From NCBI GenBank assembly GCA_001771575.1, contig MEUD01000001.1:1575470-1639469 (forward strand): DNA of 64,000 nucleotides, given 5' to 3'. The stretch is from a candidate division WOR-1 bacterium RIFOXYB2_FULL_45_9 (GTDB lineage Bacteria > Margulisbacteria > WOR-1 > O2-12-FULL-45-9 > XYB2-FULL-48-7). Positions within the stretch are counted from its first letter, which is position 1; each line of letters starts with the position of its first letter. Positions 7,982 through 62,977 of this stretch are shown piece by piece. The notes under the pieces are model-generated. The model did not search any database. It was not told the origin of the DNA and saw only the letters and a program-made list of their open reading frames with translations. A program made the position numbers and the translations under genes.

Positions 7982-9013
7982 ATGGCTAAAGTTGTCCATC
8001 TGCCGAAAGCGACCTTTTTCCAGCGCTCTTTTTCACCGGGCCACCGGGCTGACGTCAAGTATCTTCCAAAGGCGACCCCGATATATCACGGCGAAAAATA
8101 CATTGGTTCTGATGGCAGTGCCGGTTTTTCCCGGCTGGTCGGATATGCTTTGCCGGGAGGTTTTTTGTCGTTTACCGATGGCCTGCCGCCTAAAACCATC
8201 TCCGCCGCGATCTCTTTTTGGCAAGAACATGAAAAGAATGATAATGAATGGGTGCCGCGCTTTCAACAGTTGCCTTTGCCCAGGCAAATGGACTATCTCC
8301 GGGTCTTTTTTGGTTATGACAATCCCAGGAACTTTTTTGAGAAAGCGACTATTAATACCGCGCGACGGATAAGCGGGCTGGCTAAACGTGATTTAGAGCT
8401 GGCCCGGACTGTTTTTTGGCGGACCAGTGAGATCTCGCCTTTAGATTTTGATCAGGCGGTCTTTTACGCTCTTGGCAAACACCCTCTTTTGCAGGCACGG
8501 CTGTTAGTGGCCAGGGGAGCGGTCCAGGGAGCGCGTTTGTTGGACGAAACATTTGAAGAGCGAACTTATGACGATCTGGAAGCGGTCCGGATCCTGATCG
8601 AGGGGGAGGGCTTGTCCCCGGCAGAAAAAGAGATCATACGAGAGATCAACAGGCTTTTTTTTCAAACAAGGGGGGGAGTGGCCCGGTCGTTTATTCTTCG
8701 CCGACTGCTGGTCTGGCGAGACAAGCTTAGCGACGCGATCAGTTTTAGCCGGCTTGTTGATCGTAAGATCAGACAGCTTGGTGATGAAAAACTGCGGTCA
8801 ATAGTCAGTCTGGCGGAAAAATCAGAAGCTCTGTGGCGTCAGTTGTGCGAGGGGTTGGGTTGTTATTCGACCCCGGAGCTTTATGAGTTGTTGTTGTTAT
8901 TTTACCGAAACGATCGGATCCTGATCCTGAAAAAAATGGGAGAGAACGGCTTTGCGGAGCGGGTCGAAGCGTTGGATTTTTACCTGATAAATGAGATGGG
9001 GAACAAACAATAA
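7982..9013 (+). CDS. hypothetical protein (343 aa)
   Basis: Long ORF with normal GC. No motif recognised. Confidence 0.5.
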   Translation: MAKVVHLPKATFFQRSFSPGHRADVKYLPKATPIYHGEKYIGSDGSAGFSRLVGYALPGGFLSFTDGLPPKTISAAISFWQEHEKNDNEWVPRFQQLPLPRQMDYLRVFFGYDNPRNFFEKATINTARRISGLAKRDLELARTVFWRTSEISPLDFDQAVFYALGKHPLLQARLLVARGAVQGARLLDETFEERTYDDLEAVRILIEGEGLSPAEKEIIREINRLFFQTRGGVARSFILRRLLVWRDKLSDAISFSRLVDRKIRQLGDEKLRSIVSLAEKSEALWRQLCEGLGCYSTPELYELLLLFYRNDRILILKKMGENGFAERVEALDFYLINEMGNKQ

Positions 9014-11841: not shown

Positions 11842-12382
11842 CTTGAATGAAGAACTGATCGCTTCAAAAAAGATGTTTGATGGCCGCTTATTGAAGCTCC
11901 GCGTCGACACCGTCCGGCTCCCTTCAGGCAAAGAAGCGACCAGAGAGGTCGTGGAGCATCCCGGAGCGGTGGCGATCATCGCGATCACCGACGACCAGGA
12001 ACTGGTCCTGGTCCGCCAGTACCGGCGAGCGGCGGGAGAAGTCCTGCTTGAAATCCCAGCCGGGACCCTTGGCCCGGGAGAAGAGGGGGTGGCGGCCGCC
12101 AAGAGAGAGCTGGAGGAAGAGACCGGCTACCGGGCGAAAAAAATGACCAAAGTCTTTTCCGGATTCGTCGCCCCGGGTTATTCGAGCGAAGCGATCCAAT
12201 TCTTTCTGGCGAAGGAGATGACCGAAACCCGCCAGCAAACCGAGGAGGATGAGTTTATCGAGGTCGATCTGGTCGACGTCGAAGCTTGCCTTGACCTGGT
12301 CAAGCAGGGAAAGATCAAGGACAACAAAACGATCATCGGCATTATGATCGCCGACCTGGCGCTCAAAGGCGAGTTAGCTTGA
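11834..12382 (+). CDS. NUDIX hydrolase (ADP-ribose pyrophosphatase-like)
   Basis: Nudix box GTLGPGEEGVAAAKRELEEETG (Gx5Ex7REuxEExGu). Confidence 0.85.
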   Translation: MTNLNEELIASKKMFDGRLLKLRVDTVRLPSGKEATREVVEHPGAVAIIAITDDQELVLVRQYRRAAGEVLLEIPAGTLGPGEEGVAAAKRELEEETGYRAKKMTKVFSGFVAPGYSSEAIQFFLAKEMTETRQQTEEDEFIEVDLVDVEACLDLVKQGKIKDNKTIIGIMIADLALKGELA

Positions 12383-27852: not shown

Positions 27853-27964
27853 CCGGGGATAGGGGAAGCGAAATGCGCGTCCATACTGAACTTGTATTCT
27901 AATCCAGTGCCATTCTTTGGGTGTCTGCCTCACTCAACACTGGGACAAACCGCTCAATAAGCCA

Positions 27965-27995
27965 GGAAGCCGCGGCGATATTACCGCTAGTTTCC
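27965..27995. repeat. 31-nt REP-like palindromic repeat, copy 1 (GGAAGCCGCGGCGATATTACCGCTAGTTTCC)
   Basis: Matches copies at 41121-41151 and, in reverse complement, at 62947-62977, with 2-4 mismatches. Outer stem GGAA(A/G)CC…GGTTTCC. Confidence 0.65.
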
Positions 27996-34025: not shown

Positions 34026-34049
34026 AACCGCGCAATTAATTGCGCGGTT
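34026..34049. other. perfect 24-nt palindrome AACCGCGCAATTAATTGCGCGGTT
   Basis: Read directly. Between convergent genes, just upstream of the terminator hairpin. Confidence 0.5.
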
Positions 34050-34059
34050 AGGCAAAGCA

Positions 34060-34100
34060 GGGAAACCGGTTCCGATCTGATCGGGACGGTTTCCCTTTTT
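34060..34100. terminator. rho-independent terminator between the convergent OMP gene and bioA
   Basis: GGGAAACCGgttccgatctgatcgggaCGGTTTCCC followed by TTTTT. The T-tract overlaps the bioA stop codon on the other strand. Confidence 0.7.
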
Positions 34101-39686: not shown

Positions 39687-41153
39687 TCTTTCCGCCCGCT
39701 TCATTTTTTTGCTTAGCAAAAGATAACTTTTGCTCTTGGGAGAATAGACCAGGTATTCATTCGAGCGGATCTTTTCCCCGTTCAGCATGATCATGGGGAG
39801 ATCGTGTTTAAAGGTCCGGGTGATCGGCGGCGAAACGGCATATGATTGTTCCCCGTTTTCCATGGTCATTTTGAACAATGAGCGGACCAGGGTGGAGGTG
39901 GTCCGGTTCTCTACGTTGGTTATTGACGCGAAGAAAAGGATCTCCGGGTCGATCAACCGGTGGGGGACTTTGAAATAATATCCATTCTCGTCGCGGTCGG
40001 CCGCTAAGCTTTGCCACTTTTTTATGGTCCACTGGTTGGGCCCCCCCTGAGAATAGTAAAGGCGCAGGTTTTTAATGTCGGCCACGCTATCGACCATGAC
40101 CGGAACGATCAAATGGTCCGGGGCTCTTGCCAGTCTGACCTCAGGTGCGGTCAGTTCTTTGGAAACCATGAAATTAGCCGGTTTTTGATAAAAAGGGAGG
40201 ATCGTGACTTCCGGGAAAATCCCTTTCTTTTTTAGTTTGCCGTCAAGCCAGGCGAGGGCGACCGCTTCGTCCCGCTGATAGAATTGGTGCCGCAGGTTGG
40301 GGATCAGGTAGAGCTGTTTTTCCCCGTTAATTTTTAGGAAACTTTTTTGGAATGTCGGCAAATAGTAACAATGGTCGTTTGTCCCGGTGATAAAAAGTAT
40401 CGGGGCGTGTTGGGTCGCCAGAAAGCGGCTGGGGTCAAGGAACGCGTTCCAGCGCTTGAGCTCGTCCGGAAGTTTCCTCGTGAATTGGTCCATCCAGGTG
40501 CATCCCTCCGGAATAAACCCAGCCCCAAAGACATTGACGACCGCTTTTAATCTTGGTTCCTGTCCATTGGTCAGGATAGAGTTGACCCCTCCCCAGGAGA
40601 GGCCGATCATTCCAAGCCGATCGGGGTCAACCTCCGGCTGGTTAGCCAAAAAACCGATCCCGTGGCGGATCGCCGCGACCGAATGGAAAAGGTAATTGTT
40701 TTCCAACTCTTGGCCGGTATAGAGCAGGCTCTCAACGTCCATGTCCGGACCGGTTGAGCGGGAGCCGCCCCGTTGTTTCCCTTTCCCCGGCAGGTCAATG
40801 ATCAGGTTGGCGTAGCCATATTTTGCCCAGCGAAGCCCGGTCGGGAGACTGGCACCGCCGCCTCCGCCATGAGAGATCAATATCGCCGGCAATCTCTCTT
40901 TTAAAAATAGGGGGACGCAGTAATAACCGAAAATAATTGACGGTTTCCCTTTATATGAGCGGCTCGGGTAATATATTTCACGCACTTTCACGGAGCCTTG
41001 AACATAAGATCGGCCTATTCTGGGGGCCGCTTCGGGGGAAGTGAGCCGCCAGAGCTCTTTGAAATCAAGGGGGGAGCAGGGAGAGGATAGCATAGAGCTA
41101 ATAAATAGAAAAATCCATATGGAAACCGCGGCGATACTGCCGCTGGTTTCCAT
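39624..41153 (-). CDS. alpha/beta-hydrolase (S9 peptidase / acetyl-xylan-esterase-like), secreted
   Basis: Nucleophile elbow GLSWGG and downstream catalytic D/H regions. N-terminal hydrophobic signal-like segment. Start placed at METSG (41153). The first codons coincide with REP-like copy 2, so the true start is uncertain. The 3' end overlaps the convergent radical SAM gene by about 60 nt. Confidence 0.65.
   Translation of the reverse strand: METSGSIAAVSIWIFLFISSMLSSPCSPLDFKELWRLTSPEAAPRIGRSYVQGSVKVREIYYPSRSYKGKPSIIFGYYCVPLFLKERLPAILISHGGGGGASLPTGLRWAKYGYANLIIDLPGKGKQRGGSRSTGPDMDVESLLYTGQELENNYLFHSVAAIRHGIGFLANQPEVDPDRLGMIGLSWGGVNSILTNGQEPRLKAVVNVFGAGFIPEGCTWMDQFTRKLPDELKRWNAFLDPSRFLATQHAPILFITGTNDHCYYLPTFQKSFLKINGEKQLYLIPNLRHQFYQRDEAVALAWLDGKLKKKGIFPEVTILPFYQKPANFMVSKELTAPEVRLARAPDHLIVPVMVDSVADIKNLRLYYSQGGPNQWTIKKWQSLAADRDENGYYFKVPHRLIDPEILFFASITNVENRTTSTLVRSLFKMTMENGEQSYAVSPPITRTFKHDLPMIMLNGEKIRSNEYLVYSPKSKSYLLLSKKMKRAERSIVRKWLISLKVWQIGRLAR
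41121..41151. repeat. 31-nt REP-like palindromic repeat, copy 2 (GGAAACCGCGGCGATACTGCCGCTGGTTTCC)
   Basis: See copy 1. It lies at the 5' end of the hydrolase ORF. Confidence 0.65.
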
Positions 41154-41242
41154 TTTAGCTTTATAACAATAAAAACGCTGTGACATGAATCATCATTTTA
41201 ACTCAAATTGCGGGGAGGCGCAATTTCTTGTATACTTGAAAT

Positions 41243-47872: not shown

Positions 47873-49159
47873 ATGATTTTTCCGGAAAAAACATTGAAAT
47901 TTACCGGTCGCCCGACAGATAAACATTTGATGTCAATTAGGCTTACGGACCAAACCAAACGGCCGGTGTTGCTCACCGCCGCGCAAACGCCGTTCATTAA
48001 CCGCGGCAAATATCAGGAAGTCTTGCGGCAATGTGGCCTCGATCGGGAAACCCCCTGGGGGATGACTTACGAAGTTTGCCGGCAGGAGAAGCTCAGCGGC
48101 TCGCTTACTCTGGCGGAAGAAATTCTTTGCCACCGCGGACGGCTTGACTGGGTTGAAGAATGTGAAGAAGGCTACCGCTTGCATGGGCCGCTTGCCATGG
48201 AGATGCGGGTGGAAACCTGCGCCGATGAGGCGACCCGCGACGAGGCGCGGCTGACTCTCCTTGCCGATTTCCGGCGGTTCGGCTATCAAACCGCCTTGCT
48301 GGCGATGGATCCGGCCGAGTATGACACGGTCAATCCCGGCTTTAACGATGAGGCGATCGCCAGGGGCCTTATGCCGCGCGATCTGCTGCTGATCAAAAGA
48401 GAACAGGAGTTGCCGGGTTCGATCGGCCTCTCGTTCCCGCGCGATCTTTTTACCCAGCTGGCGGAAACGGTTTATATCAATCCGGACGCCGGGGTTTTTG
48501 ATTGGCGGCCGTTATTTAATTGGGCAGGTGGCGGCTTGCGGCAGAATTACAGCCGAATTGGTTGCGGCGGTGAGGTCGTTATTGGTGATAAGTACGCCTT
48601 CCTGTCGGAGCAGTACATTCCCGACCTTTCTTTTCTCCCTCCGGAACAGCGGCTCATGCTGGAAATGGAATCGCGGCTTTTCAATATGGTGACGATCGGC
48701 GAAACGGAAGCGACCCTGCGAAGATTTGGGCGGCAAGTTTTCCGGGTCCCTTACGGTTGGACCGATATTTTTCCCCGCCAGCTGCTGGCCGAGCTTGGTA
48801 CTTCCAAACGGTTTTTGGTGCCGAACGACCACGCTGACATGAACCTGATGCACTTGCCGGACGAGAACGCCATTCTCACGGCGGAGCCGTATTATCTGGA
48901 GAACAGGGAATTGATCGATCGGCTTCTGGAAGAGGTCAAACCCGACCTGTTTCGCGTTTTACCGGAAGAGGACGGCCTGCCGGTCAATTTGCTCCCGCTA
49001 CCGGGCGGCGGGGTTTACCTCGATCAGGCGGCCGTTGCCGCGGCCCGGATCTTGCGGGCAGCGGGGATCAGGGTAGAAACAACTTCACGGCTATTTGGCA
49101 CCTTCCTCTGGGGCTCGCAGGGCGGGATACACTGCGCCACTAATACGCTTTGGTTATAA
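47873..49159 (+). CDS. hypothetical enzyme with amidinotransferase/agmatine-deiminase-superfamily-like C-terminus
   Basis: 428-aa ORF ending …LWGSQGGIHCATNTLWL. G-G-x-H-C-x-T at the extreme C-terminus is the catalytic-Cys signature of guanidino-group-modifying enzymes (agmatine deiminase, PAD). The rest of the fold was not verified. Confidence 0.45.
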   Translation: MIFPEKTLKFTGRPTDKHLMSIRLTDQTKRPVLLTAAQTPFINRGKYQEVLRQCGLDRETPWGMTYEVCRQEKLSGSLTLAEEILCHRGRLDWVEECEEGYRLHGPLAMEMRVETCADEATRDEARLTLLADFRRFGYQTALLAMDPAEYDTVNPGFNDEAIARGLMPRDLLLIKREQELPGSIGLSFPRDLFTQLAETVYINPDAGVFDWRPLFNWAGGGLRQNYSRIGCGGEVVIGDKYAFLSEQYIPDLSFLPPEQRLMLEMESRLFNMVTIGETEATLRRFGRQVFRVPYGWTDIFPRQLLAELGTSKRFLVPNDHADMNLMHLPDENAILTAEPYYLENRELIDRLLEEVKPDLFRVLPEEDGLPVNLLPLPGGGVYLDQAAVAAARILRAAGIRVETTSRLFGTFLWGSQGGIHCATNTLWL

Positions 49160-50765
49160 CCAGTTCGGAATAATTGTCCCGTGCCAGCACTTTTCCTCGG
49201 ATCTTCGCTTTTTCCCAGCTCTTAGTATCGCTTAGGACGACCGCTTTTTCTGTTTTTAAAAAATCTTTCAACTTGGCTTGGTCCCAGGCATAAAGGTCGG
49301 CTGGCCCGCTCATGAAGTCGACGTAAAAAAGGTCGGGACTATAAAAGAGCTGGCGGTCCGGCGGACGGTAGATAACCAGGGCGTAGCCCTGGCGGGTATA
49401 ATCATTGATCAAGGCCGGCCATTTGACGTCCGGATTGAACGAATTGACCAATGGGAGCGAAACGTAAAACAAGGCGTTGTAAGCCAACATAGTTAAAACG
49501 CAAAAAACGACAAGTTTATTCCAGGCCGGCCGGACCAGGTAAAAGAAAAGCCAACTCAAAGCGACGACAAATAGTCCGATCGGCAAAAGGGCGTCGCCAA
49601 GATAGATCCCATCGCCGTTATACGGTTTATTAAACAACGTAATAAATCCGACCGCAAAGATCAGCCAAAAGATGAGGTTCCAGAGTAATTCAATACGGAA
49701 ACCTGCGAATAAATCCGCCGCGGCGGACGGTTTCCGTATTTTCCATTGGATGGCGGTTAGTTTAAGCGCTGCTAAAATCGCCAGCGGTGGGACAAAGACG
49801 GTAAAGGTCCGCAGGTCGTTCTGGCGGTAGAAGAACAAGAGAAAGAGCAAATTTGACCAGAACCAGAGGTTGCAGAAGTGGTAGAGGCTAAGGCGGTGGG
49901 AGGGCTTCGGCAAGCTTATCGCCGTCATCGCGAGCGGCGCCCAGGGGAAAATGATGATCAAAAGGTAGCCGATGACTGACGTATAAAAACCAAAGCCGAG
50001 GTAGCTGGTATTGTATTTACTTTGAATGGTGATACTGCGCAGGTACGGCAGCCATTGATCGCCGAGCGGAATAATTTGGAGGGCCAGGACGCCGCCGATG
50101 AGCAGGAGAAGCAAGAAAGCGGTCAGGATTAGGTGGTAAGAGAAAACGAAACGAAAAAGCTTTGAGCGGGCCTCTTTGTTGAAAATCAAAAGAAAAATGA
50201 CTGTTAGCCCGGGGAGAAGGAGGCCAAAGCCGGATTTGACGAGAAAGCCGCAGGCCAGAGCGACGGTAAAAAGATAGATCGAGCTTGGGCGATCTTTCTT
50301 AATAAAATCATAAAGCGCCAGATGGGCCAGAGTGACAAAAAGCGGCAAGAGAATATCGAGCTTTGGCGCGCGCGAATAAGCGACCAATCCGAGACTGGTC
50401 CCGGCGATGATCGCGGCAAGGAGGGCGAGCCGCTGACCGCTTGCTCTCCTAATATAAAAATAGATCAAGGCCAGCAGGGCGGCAAAATAAAGGACATTGG
50501 CAAGGTGGACCGTTAGTTCGCTGACGCCGAATAGTTTCATCGGCCAGGCGAGAAGCCAGATCCCGAGCGGCGGTTTGTCGAGAAAAGAGGCGGGGTCGCC
50601 CGGTGAAATATATTGAGCCAGCCATTGATTGTGGACAACCGCGTTCTTGGCCGCCAGGGCGTAAAGAGAGGCGTCGTCGTTCTGCAACGGATTGCGCGGC
50701 AAGGTAGCGAAAGAGACCAGAATGAAAAGGCCGAGGCAAAGGGCAAGGACAAGGCGCAGGTTCAT
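49140..50765 (-). CDS. ArnT/PMT-like (GT39/GT83) membrane glycosyltransferase, paralog 2
   Basis: Polytopic. N-terminal loop DASLYALAAKN…PPLGIWLLA. Same architecture as the other paralogs. Confidence 0.7.
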   Translation of the reverse strand: MNLRLVLALCLGLFILVSFATLPRNPLQNDDASLYALAAKNAVVHNQWLAQYISPGDPASFLDKPPLGIWLLAWPMKLFGVSELTVHLANVLYFAALLALIYFYIRRASGQRLALLAAIIAGTSLGLVAYSRAPKLDILLPLFVTLAHLALYDFIKKDRPSSIYLFTVALACGFLVKSGFGLLLPGLTVIFLLIFNKEARSKLFRFVFSYHLILTAFLLLLLIGGVLALQIIPLGDQWLPYLRSITIQSKYNTSYLGFGFYTSVIGYLLIIIFPWAPLAMTAISLPKPSHRLSLYHFCNLWFWSNLLFLLFFYRQNDLRTFTVFVPPLAILAALKLTAIQWKIRKPSAAADLFAGFRIELLWNLIFWLIFAVGFITLFNKPYNGDGIYLGDALLPIGLFVVALSWLFFYLVRPAWNKLVVFCVLTMLAYNALFYVSLPLVNSFNPDVKWPALINDYTRQGYALVIYRPPDRQLFYSPDLFYVDFMSGPADLYAWDQAKLKDFLKTEKAVVLSDTKSWEKAKIRGKVLARDNYSELVITKAY

Positions 50766-52966: not shown

Positions 52967-53964
52967 AAATACTGATCGTTAAATTGGGGGCGATCGGGGA
53001 CGTTCTCCGCACGACTTCGCTCCTCCCCGGGCTAAGCGATAAGTTTAACCGCCAAGCGCGAATCGATTGGTTGACCGCTCCTTCGGCCAAAGATATTTTG
53101 CTCAATAATCCTTATATCAGCCGCTTGGCGACTTGGGAAGAGCGGGCTGAACTTGACGATTATCAGCTGGTCGTTGGCCTGGAAGACGACCGGGCGGCCT
53201 GTGAATACGTTTCGTCGCGGCGGGCGGAGCAGATAGTGGGGGCTTATTTAAAGAACGGCAAACTTACCTACACCCCCTCCGGTTGGTTCGATATGTCAAT
53301 GATCTCCCGCTTTGGCCTGGAGCAGGCGAACGTCCTGAAAAAAAAGAACCAAAACACCTACCAACAGCACATGGCCGCTCTGCTCGGGATCGAGATCTCT
53401 CCATACGTATTTAATCTGAAGCCGGAGGAGAGGGAATACGGGGAACAGGTGATTAGGGAATTAGGGATTGGAAAAAGAGAGACGATCATCGGGATTAATA
53501 CCGGAGCGGGGAAGCGCTGGCCGCTTAAAAGCTGGGGAGTAGAACAGACGATCGATCTGGTTAAAAGGCTCCGAAAGGAACTGGGGCTGGTCTCCCTGAT
53601 ACTTGGCGGTGACCAGGAACAGGAGCGAAACGCCCTGATCGCCAAAGAGACCGATATGCCAAATGCCGGGTCGCATTCATTGCGCGGTTTCGCATCGGTA
53701 ATTGACCAGGGGAGGATCCTTCTCTCCAGCGACAGCCTGGCGATGCACTTCGGCATCGCTTTAAAAAAACGGCTGGTCGTCTTTTTCGGCCCGACATCCG
53801 CCGCCGAGATCGAACTTTATGGGTTGGGGGAGAAGCTTCTCGCCCCGATCGATTGCTCCGTCTGTTACAAAAAAGACTGCGCAAAGAGCCCCAACTGCAT
53901 GGTCCTTCTTTCGGTCGACGAAGTTTTCCAGGCGATAAAAAGACAAGCGAGTGAGGGCCTTTAA
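52960..53964 (+). CDS. family 9 glycosyltransferase (LPS heptosyltransferase-like)
   Basis: KILIVKLGAIGDVLRTTSLL N-terminus, GINTGAG…RWP and SDSLAMH blocks typical of RfaF/RfaC. Confidence 0.8.
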   Translation: MVKILIVKLGAIGDVLRTTSLLPGLSDKFNRQARIDWLTAPSAKDILLNNPYISRLATWEERAELDDYQLVVGLEDDRAACEYVSSRRAEQIVGAYLKNGKLTYTPSGWFDMSMISRFGLEQANVLKKKNQNTYQQHMAALLGIEISPYVFNLKPEEREYGEQVIRELGIGKRETIIGINTGAGKRWPLKSWGVEQTIDLVKRLRKELGLVSLILGGDQEQERNALIAKETDMPNAGSHSLRGFASVIDQGRILLSSDSLAMHFGIALKKRLVVFFGPTSAAEIELYGLGEKLLAPIDCSVCYKKDCAKSPNCMVLLSVDEVFQAIKRQASEGL

Positions 53965-55466
53965 TACTTCGTGCTTCGACAGGCGGTGACGTAAGCCGAG
54001 GCCGCTTCGCGGGACGAGTTATAACATCTTTCCCCTTTGATCAAAACGGCGGGGATCTGTAATTTATTGGCCGACAATATCGCCGCCAAAGAAAAGAGCC
54101 AGTGGCCGGTCCGGTCGAGCGGATGAAGGATATTGGTGTTTTCCAGGACGAAGATCTTAAGCAATTTGCCGAGCGAAAAGAGGTTTGGCCTTCGGTCAAA
54201 GGAATACGTATTGATTCGACCGTCAAATGCTTTAGCCAGCGGATGATCGGCGGCGGTGATCAAGGAGATCATGTAGCCATTGCCAATCATCTGATCGAGA
54301 AATGAGGCGGCCTGGGCGATAAGCTTCTCGTCCCGGCTAAAAAAGCTGTAAGTGACGGAAAAGGTCTTTTTGCACCAGTCGTGAAAAGCGTCAGCCTGAT
54401 TTTTCAATCCCTGACCAGCAAGGAGCCGATCGAGCGCGTCGGCAATTTCACCCGGCTTGATCTCGGTCTGGCACAGGTCGTCGGGGCAATGGCTGGCGTC
54501 GCAATATTTGGGGCAGGCGCTCTTCTTTCTGACGACAACGTGTTCGGTCTTCCAGGGGCCCCAGCGGGTCGGTTTGGCCGCTTTAGAGGTGAAGATCGCC
54601 ACCATCGGGCGTTTAAGGGCGGCGGCCAGGTGCAAGGGGCCGGTGTCGACCCCGATATAGACCGAAAAACCGGCGATCAGGGCGACCAATTCCCCCAGGC
54701 TTAACCGGTCGGTCAGATCGAGGACCCCTTTGATTTCGCCAGCCACCCGGTCGGCTTTTTCCCGGTCCTTTGGCCCGCCGCTCAAGATGATCCTGGCGTT
54801 TGGGTGGCGGCTTAAAATGATCCGGGCGAGCTCCGTCCAGCTATGCGGGTCCCATGGCTTGTTGCCGCTCCCGGTCCCCAGGTGAAGCCCGATGATCAGG
54901 GCATTGGTGGGGATCCCGTTCTCCTCAAAGATCTTTTTGATCCTGGCGAGATTGTCCGCCGTTGGGACGATGGTCATCTCGCCGGGTTCGCCTTTGATCC
55001 CGAGCGGCTCCAGCAAGAGGAGGTTCTGTTCGGTCTCGTGGCGGGTGATGTCTTTCCAGCGCTGGAGCCCTTTAATGTTCTTAAACAGGGAAGTGGTTAA
55101 ATGTGCCCTGTCCCCCAGGCGGCAAGGGATCCGTGCCAGGAGGGAGATCAGGGAGTAGCTCCAGTGGTCGGTAAAAAATACCGCCAGGTCGAATTTTCTC
55201 CTCCGGAACTCTTGAACGTAGCGGGCGATCGTCCGCCAGGCCGGCCGTTCTTTTTTGAAAATCTTGTCATAGAGCCCCTCGTCGTATAGAAGGTCGTCAA
55301 GCAGGGGGGAGCGCTCGAAGATCGCGGCGCTGTAATGCCGCGTCAGCAGGGTTATTTTCGCTTCGGGAAAGCGCTGGCGCAGGGCGGACAGAGCCGGGGT
55401 GATCAGCGTTTGATCGCCGATCGCGTCGGGCCGGATGGCCAAAATATTTTTAAACGTGTTGCGCAT
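53961..55466 (-). CDS. family 9 glycosyltransferase (heptosyltransferase-like) with C-terminal extension
   Basis: ILAIRPDAIGDQTLITPAL, GLHLGTGSGNKPW, VDTGPLHLAAAL. About 150 extra C-terminal residues. Confidence 0.75.
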   Translation of the reverse strand: MRNTFKNILAIRPDAIGDQTLITPALSALRQRFPEAKITLLTRHYSAAIFERSPLLDDLLYDEGLYDKIFKKERPAWRTIARYVQEFRRRKFDLAVFFTDHWSYSLISLLARIPCRLGDRAHLTTSLFKNIKGLQRWKDITRHETEQNLLLLEPLGIKGEPGEMTIVPTADNLARIKKIFEENGIPTNALIIGLHLGTGSGNKPWDPHSWTELARIILSRHPNARIILSGGPKDREKADRVAGEIKGVLDLTDRLSLGELVALIAGFSVYIGVDTGPLHLAAALKRPMVAIFTSKAAKPTRWGPWKTEHVVVRKKSACPKYCDASHCPDDLCQTEIKPGEIADALDRLLAGQGLKNQADAFHDWCKKTFSVTYSFFSRDEKLIAQAASFLDQMIGNGYMISLITAADHPLAKAFDGRINTYSFDRRPNLFSLGKLLKIFVLENTNILHPLDRTGHWLFSLAAILSANKLQIPAVLIKGERCYNSSREAASAYVTACRSTKY

Positions 55467-62946: not shown

Positions 62947-62977
62947 GGAAACCTGCGGCAATATCGCCGCGGTTTCC
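62947..62977. repeat. 31-nt REP-like palindromic repeat, copy 3 (reverse orientation; GGAAACCTGCGGCAATATCGCCGCGGTTTCC)
   Basis: Its reverse complement, GGAAACCGCGGCGATATTGCCGCAGGTTTCC, differs from copy 2 at 2 of 31 positions. Intergenic between lpxL-like and ArnT paralog 4. Confidence 0.65.

What the first reader, a model, noticed from the sequence alone, without database searches (positions are those of the whole stretch)
27965..27995. Dispersed 31-nt palindromic (REP-like) repeat family in three copies, plus a related terminator stem
Seen in sequence: GGAAGCCGCGGCGATATTACCGCTAGTTTCC (27965-27995), GGAAACCGCGGCGATACTGCCGCTGGTTTCC (41121-41151) and the reverse complement of 62947-62977 (GGAAACCGCGGCGATATTGCCGCAGGTTTCC) are the same element with 2-4 mismatches.

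Each can fold as a hairpin with outer stem GGAAACC/GGTTTCC and inner stem GCGGC/GCCGC. The bidirectional terminator at 34060-34095 shares the outer stem (GGGAAACCG…CGGTTTCCC).

Two copies are intergenic: one next to the ORF6N islet and one between the lpxL-like gene and ArnT paralog 4. One overlaps the predicted 5' end of the secreted hydrolase gene, which questions that start codon.

Inference: a REP/BIME-like family that may affect mRNA stability, transcription termination or recombination in this genome.
Basis: seen in the sequence. Interest (0 to 1): 0.5.

Follow-up and report, generated by a model that had tools for sequence, protein, structure and literature searches.

The report
REP-like hairpin repeats with cognate transposase
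The three 31-base hairpin repeats are real members of a REP-like repeat family found across WOR-1/Margulisiibacteriota bacteria and tied to a single-copy IS200-type tyrosine transposase encoded elsewhere in the same genome: a familiar kind of element in a new lineage, with an unusual class of transposase.

Summary
The three copies sit exactly where stated, and none is expected by chance. The consensus is GGAAACCGCGGCGATATTGCCGCAGGTTTCC: a 7-bp stem, a 1-nt bulge, a 5-bp stem and a 6-nt loop.

Public contigs yielded about 57 independent further sites in Margulisiibacteriota/Saganbacteria. Three stem pairs show compensatory changes. Copies are strongly extragenic: 33 of 57 sites are fully intergenic, against about 10% non-coding DNA. 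They often form head-to-head doublets with a second hairpin type (loop GTTYA).

In seven loci a Y1 HUH transposase gene is flanked by these hairpins. The window comes from WOR-1 bacterium RIFOXYA12_FULL_52_29, and the assemblies that hold its proteins also hold this transposase, once per assembly, in a ligA–Y1–spoU locus shared by three species.

The enzyme scores as IS200-class, not as canonical RAYT. No GTAG/CGTC tag is present.

The terminator at 34061-34094 is orthologous to a true copy in a related genome. Copy 2 lies inside the hydrolase coding sequence, in the n-region of the signal peptide, so the start codon is not in doubt.

Verdict: a REP/BIME-like system working in the RAYT manner, and a new variant of a known kind. 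Interest is moderate.

The parts
27965..27995 (+). REP-like hairpin, copy 1. Type A, decayed: 4 substitutions from the consensus, and two stem pairs broken.
   Evidence: 44.0 bits. The orthologous site L004:1074-1104 carries the perfect consensus inside a 186-nt block that is 91% identical.
41121..41151 (+). REP-like hairpin, copy 2. Type A, 2 substitutions. It lies in the 5' coding region of the minus-strand AXE1/DLH-type hydrolase gene, where it encodes ETSGSIAAVS in the n-region of the signal peptide. It is 92 nt upstream of thiG.
   Evidence: 53.4 bits. Public gene calls place the start at 41153. N-terminal alignment of homologues.
62947..62977 (-). REP-like hairpin, copy 3. Type A, exact family consensus. 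Intergenic within a co-directional gene pair: 87 nt after the lpxL-like stop and 20 nt before the ArnT-like start, directly 5' of its Shine-Dalgarno sequence.
   Evidence: 54.9 bits.
34061..34094 (-). Terminator hairpin followed by TTTTTATTTTT. It keeps the family's outer stem (GGGAAACC/GGTTTCCC) but has a different inner part. It is orthologous to a full REP copy in a related genome, so it is a derived or overwritten family site that now serves as an intrinsic-terminator stem.
   Evidence: Model score 19.3 bits, E 0.03. The alignment with L050 shows identical flanks and T-run, with a true type-A copy in place of the inner part.
34026..34049 (.). Perfect palindrome (T)TAACCGCGCAATTAATTGCGCGGTTA(A). 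It belongs to a second, related hairpin family that shares the core AACCGCG/CGCGGTT and usually sits beside type-A copies.
   Evidence: 0.02 expected by chance. Identical copies occur in L021, L049 and L100, and a variant in L091; those in L021, L049 and L091 lie next to REP copies. It is absent from the orthologous L050 site.
49697..49735 (-). Possible relic: GGAAACCG, 22 nt, CAGGTTTCC, inside the PMT_2/ArnT-like ORF 49140-50765. Low confidence.
   Evidence: Model score 20.2 bits, E 0.016 with rough calibration. Sequence. The paralogue alignment could not show whether it is an insertion.

Best explanation
**What they are.** The three repeats are solo copies of a REP-like element: a 31-nt imperfect palindrome that folds as a bulged hairpin on single-stranded nucleic acid. 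The family is spread through WOR-1/Margulisiibacteriota/Saganbacteria genomes.

**Proposed mechanism.**
- The family is generated and kept uniform by a cognate single-copy Y1 HUH tyrosine transposase.
- The enzyme is IS200-class in sequence but RAYT-like in behaviour.
- Its own gene is bracketed by the hairpins.
- In the window's genome it lies about 1,200 genes away, in a ligA–Y1–spoU locus.
- By analogy with IS608/ISDra2 TnpA and E. coli TnpA-REP, the enzyme would recognise the hairpin on single-stranded DNA and cut and rejoin next to it. That would spread single hairpins and head-to-head doublets, mostly into intergenic DNA just after stop codons.

**Secondary uses.** Once in place, copies are passively transcribed and some are co-opted.
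- The site at 34061-34094 acts as the stem of an intrinsic terminator.
- Copy 3 is placed where it could act as an inter-cistronic RNA hairpin.
- Copy 2 is translated as part of a signal-peptide n-region.

**Shown:** family membership, selection on the hairpin, extragenic bias, the doublet architecture, the transposase association, presence of the transposase in this genome, and its conserved catalytic residues.

**Inferred:** that this enzyme mobilises the hairpins, that recognition occurs on single-stranded DNA, and any effect on RNA.
For: **Real repeat.** Three copies against 0 expected. Model scores are 44-55 bits.

**Family beyond the window.** Identical 31-mers occur in unrelated contexts in the Margulisiibacteriota MAG JBAZMB01, in OY969425.1 and in many metagenome contigs. 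These reduce to about 57 independent sites.

**Selection on the hairpin.**
- 97.3% of cells are paired.
- Pairs 5:27 (AU 11, GC 10), 9:22 (CG 19, AU 3) and 11:20 (AU 16, GC 6) change on both sides.
- 0 of 500 shuffles reach the observed covariation score or percentage paired.
- Slid controls give 23-58% paired.

**Placement.**
- 72 of 105 copies, and 33 of 57 sites, are intergenic at 90% coding density.
- A copy within 30 nt of a stop codon is antisense to that gene in 22 of 24 cases.

**Architecture.** 19 doublets are all head-to-head, (-) then (+). They pair a GGAAACC hairpin with a GGAAGCC hairpin, which often has the GTTYA loop.

**Transposase association.** Pfam Y1_Tnp genes are flanked by the hairpins in seven places: L009, L124/L054, L129, L014, L116, L126 and L128. 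A second paralogue in L124 is flanked by a different hairpin.

**Same genome.**
- The window's ThiG and YjeF_N are OGC12335.1 and OGC12319.1 of WOR-1 bacterium RIFOXYA12_FULL_52_29.
- The transposase OGC11112.1 is in the same four assemblies, with one accession each.
- It is an exact subsequence of the L129 product.

**Behaves as a resident gene.**
- The ligA–small ORF–Y1–spoU–pheST order is conserved in three species.
- Y1 identity is 88-94%, against 92-93% for the LigA C-terminus.
- Each homologue cluster sits on only 1-2 contigs.

**Catalytic residues.** HVH, Tyr120 and Gln124 are invariant in 22 homologues.

**Turnover between genomes.**
- L051 has a doublet where the window has none.
- L050 has a full copy where the window has the terminator.
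- The closest hydrolase homologue lacks the peptide encoded by copy 2.
Against: - No activity has been shown for this enzyme on these hairpins.
- The enzyme passes the NCBIfam IS200/IS605 cutoff (65-79 bits against 55). It fails the REP-associated tyrosine transposase cutoff (41-58 bits against 80).
- A family profile matches IS200-type structures at 1e-13 to 1e-18. It matches E. coli TnpA-REP at only E = 0.52.
- There is no conserved GTAG or CGTC tag at the hairpin foot.
- In the ligA-type loci the two nearest flanking hairpins are in direct orientation, as at IS200 ends, not inverted.
- The window holds only solo copies. One is decaying and one or two are relics, so activity in this particular genome may be low or past.
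- The genome-wide copy number could not be measured.
- The gene calling behind the placement statistics is a crude longest-ORF heuristic.
- Orthologous sites from different samples were merged only approximately.
Confidence: 0.8

Rival explanations
1. The hairpins are simply the subterminal left- and right-end structures of an active IS200/IS605-type insertion sequence. On this view the dispersed solo copies are leftover ends or miniature derivatives, not a REP population served by a resident transposase.
For: - The enzyme passes the curated IS200/IS605 model and fails the RAYT model.
- Its closest solved structures are IS200, ISDra2 and IS608 TnpA.
- In L009, L124 and L129 the hairpins next to the gene are in direct orientation, as at IS200 ends.
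Against: - The gene sits at the same chromosomal place (ligA–Y1–spoU–pheST) in three species, and has diverged about as much as LigA.
- There is one accession per assembly in the window's genome.
- Homologue clusters occupy 1-2 contigs each, with no near-identical multi-copy clusters.
- What is repeated is only the 30-31-nt hairpin, with no longer shared flank.
- In L014, L116, L126 and L128 the flanking hairpins are inverted, which is the RAYT arrangement.
Confidence: 0.1
2. The repeats are primarily RNA-level signals: intrinsic terminator stems or 3'-end stabilisers, selected at each site for that function. The association with the transposase would then be incidental.
For: - Copies cluster 3-15 nt after stop codons, with a consistent orientation in 22 of 24 cases.
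- The orthologous L050 copy and the window hairpin at 34061-34094 are followed by TTTTTATTTTT.
- Stem pairing is maintained by compensatory change.
Against: - Most copies, including all three in the window, have no downstream T-run.
- The loop and stem sequences are almost invariant across species that share only about 77-85% nucleotide identity elsewhere. A generic terminator does not need that.
- Copies occur in frame inside coding sequences.
- Head-to-head doublets, and hairpins bracketing Y1 genes in seven loci, are not explained.

This reading fits best as a secondary, site-by-site co-option.
Confidence: 0.07
3. The palindrome is the double-stranded operator of a dimeric transcription factor that controls the neighbouring genes (thiG, the ArnT-like gene and the small ORF).
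For: - It is a near-palindrome in three upstream regions. Copies 1 and 3 are co-oriented with the downstream gene, and copy 2 is co-oriented with thiG.
- No TPP riboswitch was detected upstream of thiG.
Against: - The two half-sites are out of register because of the 1-nt bulge.
- Variation is compensatory, preserving pairing and not sequence.
- The neighbouring genes at about 57 sites are functionally unrelated.
- Many copies sit at gene 3' ends or inside coding sequences.
- The doublets and the Y1 association are not explained.
Confidence: 0.02

Closest known systems
E. coli REP/BIME elements with TnpA-REP (RayT/YafM); RAYT groups 2 and 3 of Bertels et al. 2017 (PMC5581495); class 2 of Quentin et al. 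2018 (PMC6006769)
   Same: - Imperfect palindromes of 20-40 nt with a bulge.
- Extragenic, often just after genes.
- Two hairpin types that alternate in orientation in composite clusters.
- A single-copy, vertically inherited Y1 HUH transposase whose gene is bracketed by the repeats.
- Occasional use as terminator or mRNA hairpins.
   Different: - No GTAG/CGTC tag at the foot of the hairpin.
- The transposase has the class-1 signature Y-x3-Q, not the class-2 signature YIxxNP. It fails NCBIfam NF047646 and does not significantly match 4ER8.
- The host is an uncultivated phylum, not Proteobacteria.
- Copy number is unmeasured. The local density is 3 per 64 kb.
REPIN–RAYT systems of Pseudomonas (Bertels and Rainey 2011, PMC3116915)
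   Same: Inverted doublets with a short spacer are the commonest composite unit in related genomes (19 of 57 sites). The transposase gene sits between inverted hairpins in L014, L116, L126 and L128.
   Different: - The two arms of a doublet are different hairpin types: GGAAACC with loop GATAYT, and GGAAGCC with loop GTTYA.
- The window itself has only singlets.
- The transposase belongs to a different class.
IS200/IS605 family insertion sequences (IS608, ISDra2, Salmonella IS200)
   Same: - The transposase is closest in sequence to this family.
- The catalytic HUH, Tyr and Gln residues are conserved.
- The enzyme gene is flanked by small bulged hairpins, in direct orientation in the ligA-type loci.
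   Different: - Single copy, syntenic across species and diverging like a housekeeping gene.
- The repeated unit is the bare hairpin, far more numerous than the gene.
Y1 subclass 1.2 of Quentin et al. 2018 (IS200-related, low copy, Cyanobacteria/Bacteroidetes)
   Same: Class-1 sequence type with low copy number and without insertion-sequence behaviour. It occurs in the neighbourhood of the sister phylum Cyanobacteria.
   Different: - Its defining motif, Y---Q--HH, is not present. Here the motif is Y-I-x-x-Q-K-x-x-G-x-D-K-R.
- Subclass 1.2 was reported without associated REPs, whereas these genes are flanked by them.
Rickettsia palindromic elements (from my own knowledge, not tested here)
   Same: Palindromic repeats tolerated in frame inside protein-coding genes. 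Here this is seen in the hydrolase signal peptide, a DJ-1/PfpI-like protein and a PabB-like protein.
   Different: The Rickettsia elements are about 100-150 bp and have no known cognate transposase. Here in-frame copies are a minority of a mainly extragenic 31-nt family.

Membership tests
REP (repetitive extragenic palindrome) elements | Short (20-40 nt) imperfect palindrome able to form a stem-loop, with pairing maintained in evolution | tested here: met
   31 nt with 12 bp, a bulge and a 6-nt loop. 97.3% of cells are paired, and three pairs show compensatory changes.
REP (repetitive extragenic palindrome) elements | Predominantly extragenic location | tested here: met
   72 of 105 copies and 33 of 57 independent sites are intergenic at about 90% coding density. 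Only 5 sites are clearly internal. In the window, two of three copies are intergenic.
REP (repetitive extragenic palindrome) elements | High copy number per genome (typically more than 100) | not testable with these tools
   Only the 64-kb window (3 copies plus 1-2 relics) and one 22-kb locus of the same genome (4 copies) could be read. The genome-contig scan did not include this genome.
REP (repetitive extragenic palindrome) elements | Conserved GTAG or CGTC tetranucleotide at one end (Di Nocera et al. 2013, PMC3733652) | tested here: not met
   The element ends in GGAA and TTCC. The flanks immediately outside the 31-mer are not conserved.
BIME / REPIN composite elements | REPs in alternating or inverted orientation, separated by short spacers | tested here: met
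   19 head-to-head doublets with spacers of 0-80 nt, mostly 10-28 nt, in related genomes. In the window itself this is not met for type-A copies, which are all singlets. The only mosaic there is the 34026-34049 palindrome beside the relic at 34061-34094.
RAYT (REP-associated tyrosine transposase) system | Y1 HUH transposase gene flanked by the same REPs that are dispersed in the genome | tested here: met
   Seen in L009, L124, L129, L014, L116, L126 and L128. L129 carries the transposase of the window's genome.
RAYT (REP-associated tyrosine transposase) system | Single copy per genome and vertical inheritance | tested here: met
   One NCBI accession per assembly. Homologue clusters sit on 1-2 contigs. 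The ligA–Y1–spoU synteny holds in three species, with divergence like that of LigA. A complete-genome check was not possible.
RAYT (REP-associated tyrosine transposase) system | Protein belongs to the curated REP-associated tyrosine transposase family (NCBIfam NF047646; class-2 motif YIxxNP) | tested here: not met
   41-58 bits against a cutoff of 80. The motif is Y-x3-Q. The match to 4ER8 has E = 0.52.
IS200/IS605 insertion sequences | Transposase matches the IS200/IS605 TnpA family, with HUH, Tyr and Gln | tested here: met
   NF033573 scores 65-79 bits against a cutoff of 55. Pfam PF01797 is matched. The catalytic residues are invariant.
IS200/IS605 insertion sequences | Multi-copy element: near-identical copies of the whole unit (gene plus ends) at different sites | tested here: not met
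   No near-identical multi-copy clusters. The locus is fixed and syntenic. Only the hairpin is repeated.
Intrinsic terminators | G+C-rich hairpin directly followed by a T-run | tested here: not met
   None of the three copies has a T-run. Only the derived site at 34061-34094 has one.

The most novel reading that the evidence does not exclude
A class-1 (IS200-type) Y1 transposase was domesticated independently of the classical class-2 RAYTs. It has since maintained a two-hairpin, BIME-like REP population across Margulisiibacteriota/Saganbacteria.

The 31-mer stays almost invariant between species that share only about 77-85% nucleotide identity. Individual sites are repeatedly overwritten by different hairpin families, and this happens even inside coding sequences.

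If so, RAYT-like resident transposase plus REP partnerships would have arisen more than once from IS200 ancestors.
Probability: 0.45. Interest if true: 0.55.

Novelty: new variant of a known kind. Interest (0 to 1): 0.4.

Why it matters
**A new lineage.** REP/RAYT partnerships have been characterised almost entirely in Proteobacteria. This is a well-resolved case in an uncultivated lineage next to the Cyanobacteria.

**A different class of enzyme.** The partner enzyme is IS200-class by every sequence test, yet it behaves like a resident single-copy gene. That bears on how often transposases are domesticated, and on where the line between an insertion sequence and a RAYT should be drawn.

**Practical use.**
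- The 31-mer and the covariance model give a marker for annotating these genomes.
- They flag likely mis-calls, such as ORFs extended through hairpins and transposase C-termini encoded by a repeat.
- They explain short in-frame insertions in proteins.
- They identify at least one terminator as repeat-derived.

For the window itself, the elements are ordinary genome furniture and have no demonstrated regulatory role.

Tried and rejected
**Rfam.** There was no family at gathering thresholds anywhere in the window. Only chance-level hits appeared around copy 1 at E up to 10.

**CRISPR remnant.** Rejected. There are no arrays; copies are solitary or in inverted doublets.

**Transposase in the window.** tblastn finds none. 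It lies elsewhere in the genome.

**Metagenome pattern.** The pattern ACCGCGRCRAYAYTGYCGCNGGT also pulled in about 55 unrelated soil-bacterial contigs. They share a conserved coding motif, CACCGCGACGACATTGCCGCCGGTC. They were recognised by their lack of the GGAA/TTCC ends and by non-complementary stems, and were discarded.

**Hits discarded from the genome scan.** The Castellaniella hit (L008) was treated as chance. The Spirochaetales hit (L005) has a different loop and was left unresolved.

**Possible relic at 49697-49735.** An alignment of the window's six PMT_2-type paralogues was too divergent to say whether the segment is an insertion.

**Site clustering.** The first attempt to merge orthologous sites was confounded by doublet partners. 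It was redone on outer flanks.

**Orientation relative to replication.** Not testable. GC skew is positive across the whole window and the copies are +, +, -, so three copies give no signal.

**Start codon.** The idea that copy 2 invalidates the hydrolase start codon was rejected on the homologue alignment.
Full report
**1. Checking the observation**

A consensus search allowing three mismatches finds these three and nothing else. None is expected in dinucleotide-preserving shuffles.

The fold is a 7-bp outer stem (GGAAACC/GGTTTCC), a single bulged base at position 24, a 5-bp inner stem (GCGGC/GCCGC) and a 6-nt loop (GATAYT). The bulge and the loop make the element asymmetric, so its orientation can be assigned.

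A covariance model built later scores the stated strands at 44.0, 53.4 and 54.9 bits, against 11-30 bits for the opposite strands. Rfam has no matching family.

**2. A large family outside the window**

One scan of species-representative genomes found the same 31-mer, often letter for letter, on:
- four contigs of the Candidatus Margulisiibacteriota MAG JBAZMB01;
- the 1.77-Mb MAG chromosome OY969425.1.

About half of those are true members. The rest are an unrelated conserved coding motif from soil bacteria, recognisable by its different ends and non-complementary arms.

After merging orthologous sites, about 57 independent sites remain. Two hairpin types emerge:

| Type | Length | Sequence |
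|---|---|---|
| A | 31 nt | GGAA[A/G]CCG[C/A]G[G/A]C-GATAYT-G[C/T]C[G/T]C-N-GG[T/C]TTCC |
| B | 30 nt | same stems, loop GTTYA |

**3. The hairpin is under selection**

These figures come from 22 distinct variants.
- 97.3% of stem cells form standard pairs.
- Pair 5:27 is AU in 11 and GC in 10.
- Pair 9:22 is CG in 19 and AU in 3.
- Pair 11:20 is AU in 16 and GC in 6.
- None of 500 shuffles reaches the observed covariation score or percentage paired.
- Sliding the 3' partners drops pairing to 23-58%.

Further compensatory variants appear beside more distant transposase genes, for example GAGGC/GCCTC in L128. The loop and the outermost GGAA/TTCC hardly vary. That points to sequence-specific recognition on top of structure.

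**4. Placement and architecture**

I used a crude longest-ORF gene caller that marks 90% of the DNA as coding.
- 72 of 105 copies are intergenic.
- 33 of 57 independent sites are fully intergenic.
- 19 sites touch a gene edge. Many of these may reflect how the caller extends ORFs to the most upstream start codon.
- 5 sites are clearly internal.

Copies within 30 nt after a stop codon are antisense to that gene in 22 of 24 cases. Copies within 30 nt before a start codon are sense in 11 of 14.

Nineteen sites carry doublets, and all are head-to-head, (-) then (+). They usually pair a GGAAACC hairpin with a GGAAGCC hairpin, which is often type B. This mirrors the alternating REP types in BIMEs and REPINs. 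Some copies carry a further small hairpin nested in the loop.

The window holds only solo type-A copies.

**5. A cognate tyrosine transposase**

The 2.5-kb contig L009 of JBAZMB01 carries five copies. It also carries a 134-aa ORF that matches Pfam Y1_Tnp (E 2e-21) and has hairpins directly on both sides.

Homologues at 46-88% identity occur beside hairpins in L054/L124, L014 and L116. They also occur in the Saganbacteria loci L126 and L128.

| Loci | Orientation of the hairpins flanking the Y1 gene |
|---|---|
| L014, L116, L126, L128 | (-) gene (+), inverted, as described for RAYTs |
| L009, L124, L129 (ligA-type) | nearest two in direct orientation |

A second paralogue in L124 is flanked by a different hairpin, TTAACCGCGRCGTTYAGYCGCGGGGC. 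So each enzyme lineage appears to have its own hairpin.

HVH, Tyr120 and Gln124 are invariant in 22 homologues. They align with the HUH histidines, the catalytic tyrosine and the metal-binding glutamine of ISDra2 and IS608 TnpA. The alignment is; the residue roles are from my own knowledge of those structures.

Several called proteins end in residues encoded by the downstream hairpin, for example ...GNRDDIVAGF.

**6. The window's own genome encodes this enzyme**

- The window's ThiG and YjeF_N proteins are OGC12335.1 and OGC12319.1 of candidate division WOR-1 bacterium RIFOXYA12_FULL_52_29 and three sibling bins. The longest contig is 1,668,697 bp.
- The transposase OGC11112.1 occurs in the same four assemblies, once in each. 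By accession numbering it lies about 1,220 genes from thiG.
- It is an exact subsequence of the product of L129:12709-13137.

In L129 the gene is surrounded by copies at 12106 (-), 12650 (+), 13099 (+) and 13233 (+).

The order ligA, small ORF, Y1, spoU methylase, pheS, pheT is shared by L124 and L129. L009, a short contig, shows its ligA–Y1 part. Y1 identity is 88-94%, beside 92-93% for the LigA C-terminus. All 39 close homologues sit on one or two contigs each and come from Margulisiibacteriota/Saganbacteria.

This is the behaviour of a resident, vertically inherited gene, not of a multi-copy insertion sequence.

**7. Which family the enzyme belongs to**

- NCBIfam places it above the IS200/IS605 cutoff (65-79 bits against 55). 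It falls below the REP-associated tyrosine transposase cutoff (41-58 bits against 80).
- A profile of the family matches IS200-type, ISDra2 and IS608 structures at 1e-13 to 1e-18. It matches E. coli TnpA-REP (4ER8) at only 0.52.
- Its Y-x3-Q motif is the class-1 signature of Quentin et al. 2018, not the class-2 YIxxNP of TnpA-REP.
- It also lacks the Y---Q--HH motif of their low-copy subclass 1.2 (PMC6006769).
- Bertels et al. 2017 define RAYTs by single copy, vertical descent and abundant flanking repeats (PMC5581495). Those behavioural criteria are met here. The sequence criteria are not.

**8. The window sites one by one**

*Copy 1.* It lies in a 186-nt block that is 91% identical to L004, while the DNA on both sides cannot be aligned.
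- The L004 copy is the perfect consensus. The window copy has four substitutions and two broken pairs, so it is decaying.
- The first ~95 nt of that block are a separate conserved non-coding segment, also present in L059 and L080 without an adjacent repeat.

*Copy 2.* It lies in the divergent region between the hydrolase gene and thiG.
- All hydrolase homologues start with a short n-region followed by a hydrophobic signal peptide.
- In the window the hydrophobic run IWIFLFISS lies downstream of the repeat, so translation must start at 41153 or 41186.
- The repeat is therefore read as ETSGSIAAVS.
- The closest homologue (75% identity) has unrelated residues there, so the insertion is lineage-specific.

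*Copy 3.* It is the exact consensus. It sits between the co-directional lpxL-like and ArnT-like genes, directly 5' of the Shine-Dalgarno sequence.

*The terminator at 34061-34094.* It aligns base for base in its flanks, outer stem and T-run with L050. There the inner part is a true type-A copy. The window hairpin is therefore a derived family site now serving as a terminator stem.

*The palindrome at 34026-34049.* It lies eleven bases upstream of that terminator, reads TAACCGCGCAATTAATTGCGCGGTTA, and is absent from L050.
- It is identical to copies in L021, L049 and L100; those in L021 and L049 lie next to type-A repeats.
- It shares the core AACCGCG/CGCGGTT with the main family.

*The possible relic at 49697-49735.* It lies inside an ArnT-like ORF and remains weak.

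**9. Turnover between genomes**

- L051 has a doublet and about 190 extra bases between two convergent genes that abut in the window.
- In a PabB-like gene, L007 carries a type-A copy in frame (GNLRQYRRGF). L100 carries the second-family palindrome at the same spot.
- In a DJ-1/PfpI-like gene, three genomes carry an in-frame copy after the signal peptide. The compensatory 11:20 change is kept even though it alters two amino acids (ETAAILPQVS against ETATILSQVS).

**10. Conclusion**

The element is a REP/BIME-like repeat. The best-supported mechanism is maintenance by the flanked Y1 HUH enzyme acting on single-stranded hairpins, with occasional co-option as a terminator or as coding sequence. 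Enzyme activity and any RNA-level effect are inferred, not shown.

Rival readings fit less well:
- An active IS200 conflicts with single copy and synteny.
- Site-selected terminators conflict with the lack of T-runs, the near-invariant sequence, the copies inside coding sequences and the transposase link.
- A transcription-factor operator conflicts with the out-of-register half-sites, the compensatory changes and the unrelated neighbouring genes.

No paper in the searched library links REPs with Margulisbacteria. I rate it a new variant of a known kind, of moderate interest.

Noticed in passing
window 27866-27960 (also L004:1109-1209 minus strand, L080:843-938, L059:4792-4888): A non-coding segment of about 95 nt is 86-92% conserved across four genomes, while the flanking DNA cannot be aligned and the downstream genes differ. 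It contains a conserved hairpin, CCAGTG..(AGGTGG..CCTCACT)..CACTGG. There is no Rfam match. It could be a small RNA or a leader at the edge of a variable islet.
   Followed up: partly
window 34026-34049; L021:835-858, L049:302-325, L100:8990-9013, L091:8087-8110: A second palindromic family, TTAACCGCGCAATTAATTGCGCGGTTAA, is identical in several genomes and often sits next to type-A repeats. It resembles the hairpins that flank a second Y1 paralogue (L124:14470-14850).
   Followed up: partly
L007:3730-3760 versus L100:8990-9013: At the same position inside orthologous PabB-like genes, one genome has a type-A repeat and the other has the second-family palindrome. This suggests that one hairpin family repeatedly targets a site or overwrites the other there.
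   Followed up: no
L003:62-92, L044:1582-1612, L107:2265-2295: An in-frame repeat follows the signal peptide of a DJ-1/PfpI-like protein in three genomes. The compensatory stem change G11A/C20T is kept although it changes two amino acids.
   Followed up: partly
L049:247-297, L057:4358-4408, L091:4051-4101 and 8116-8183: Some repeats carry another small hairpin (GCCTGCCTGCCGGTAGGCAGG) nested in their loop. This hints at a further mobile palindrome that targets hairpin loops.
   Followed up: no
L129:13099-13137; proteins P0002, P0162 and many others in alignment A4: Public gene calls for the Y1 transposase run through the downstream repeat. The last 10-13 residues (for example GNRDDIVAGF or WKPRRLVAGFQ) are therefore encoded by the hairpin. 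It is unclear whether this tail is functional.
   Followed up: no
window 41152-41242 (upstream of thiG-thiH-thiS): No TPP riboswitch is detected upstream of the thiGHS operon at Rfam gathering thresholds.
   Followed up: no
window 53942-53971 versus L051:10725-10945: Two convergent genes abut in the window. The related genome has about 190 extra bases there, with a repeat doublet and two further terminator-like hairpins.
   Followed up: partly
about 55 of the metagenome-scan loci (L010-L123), e.g. L012, L015, L017, L022 and other soil-metagenome contigs: A highly conserved coding motif, CACCGCGACGACATTGCCGCCGGTC, in many soil bacteria matched the loose search pattern by chance. It is unrelated to the repeat family.
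   Followed up: no
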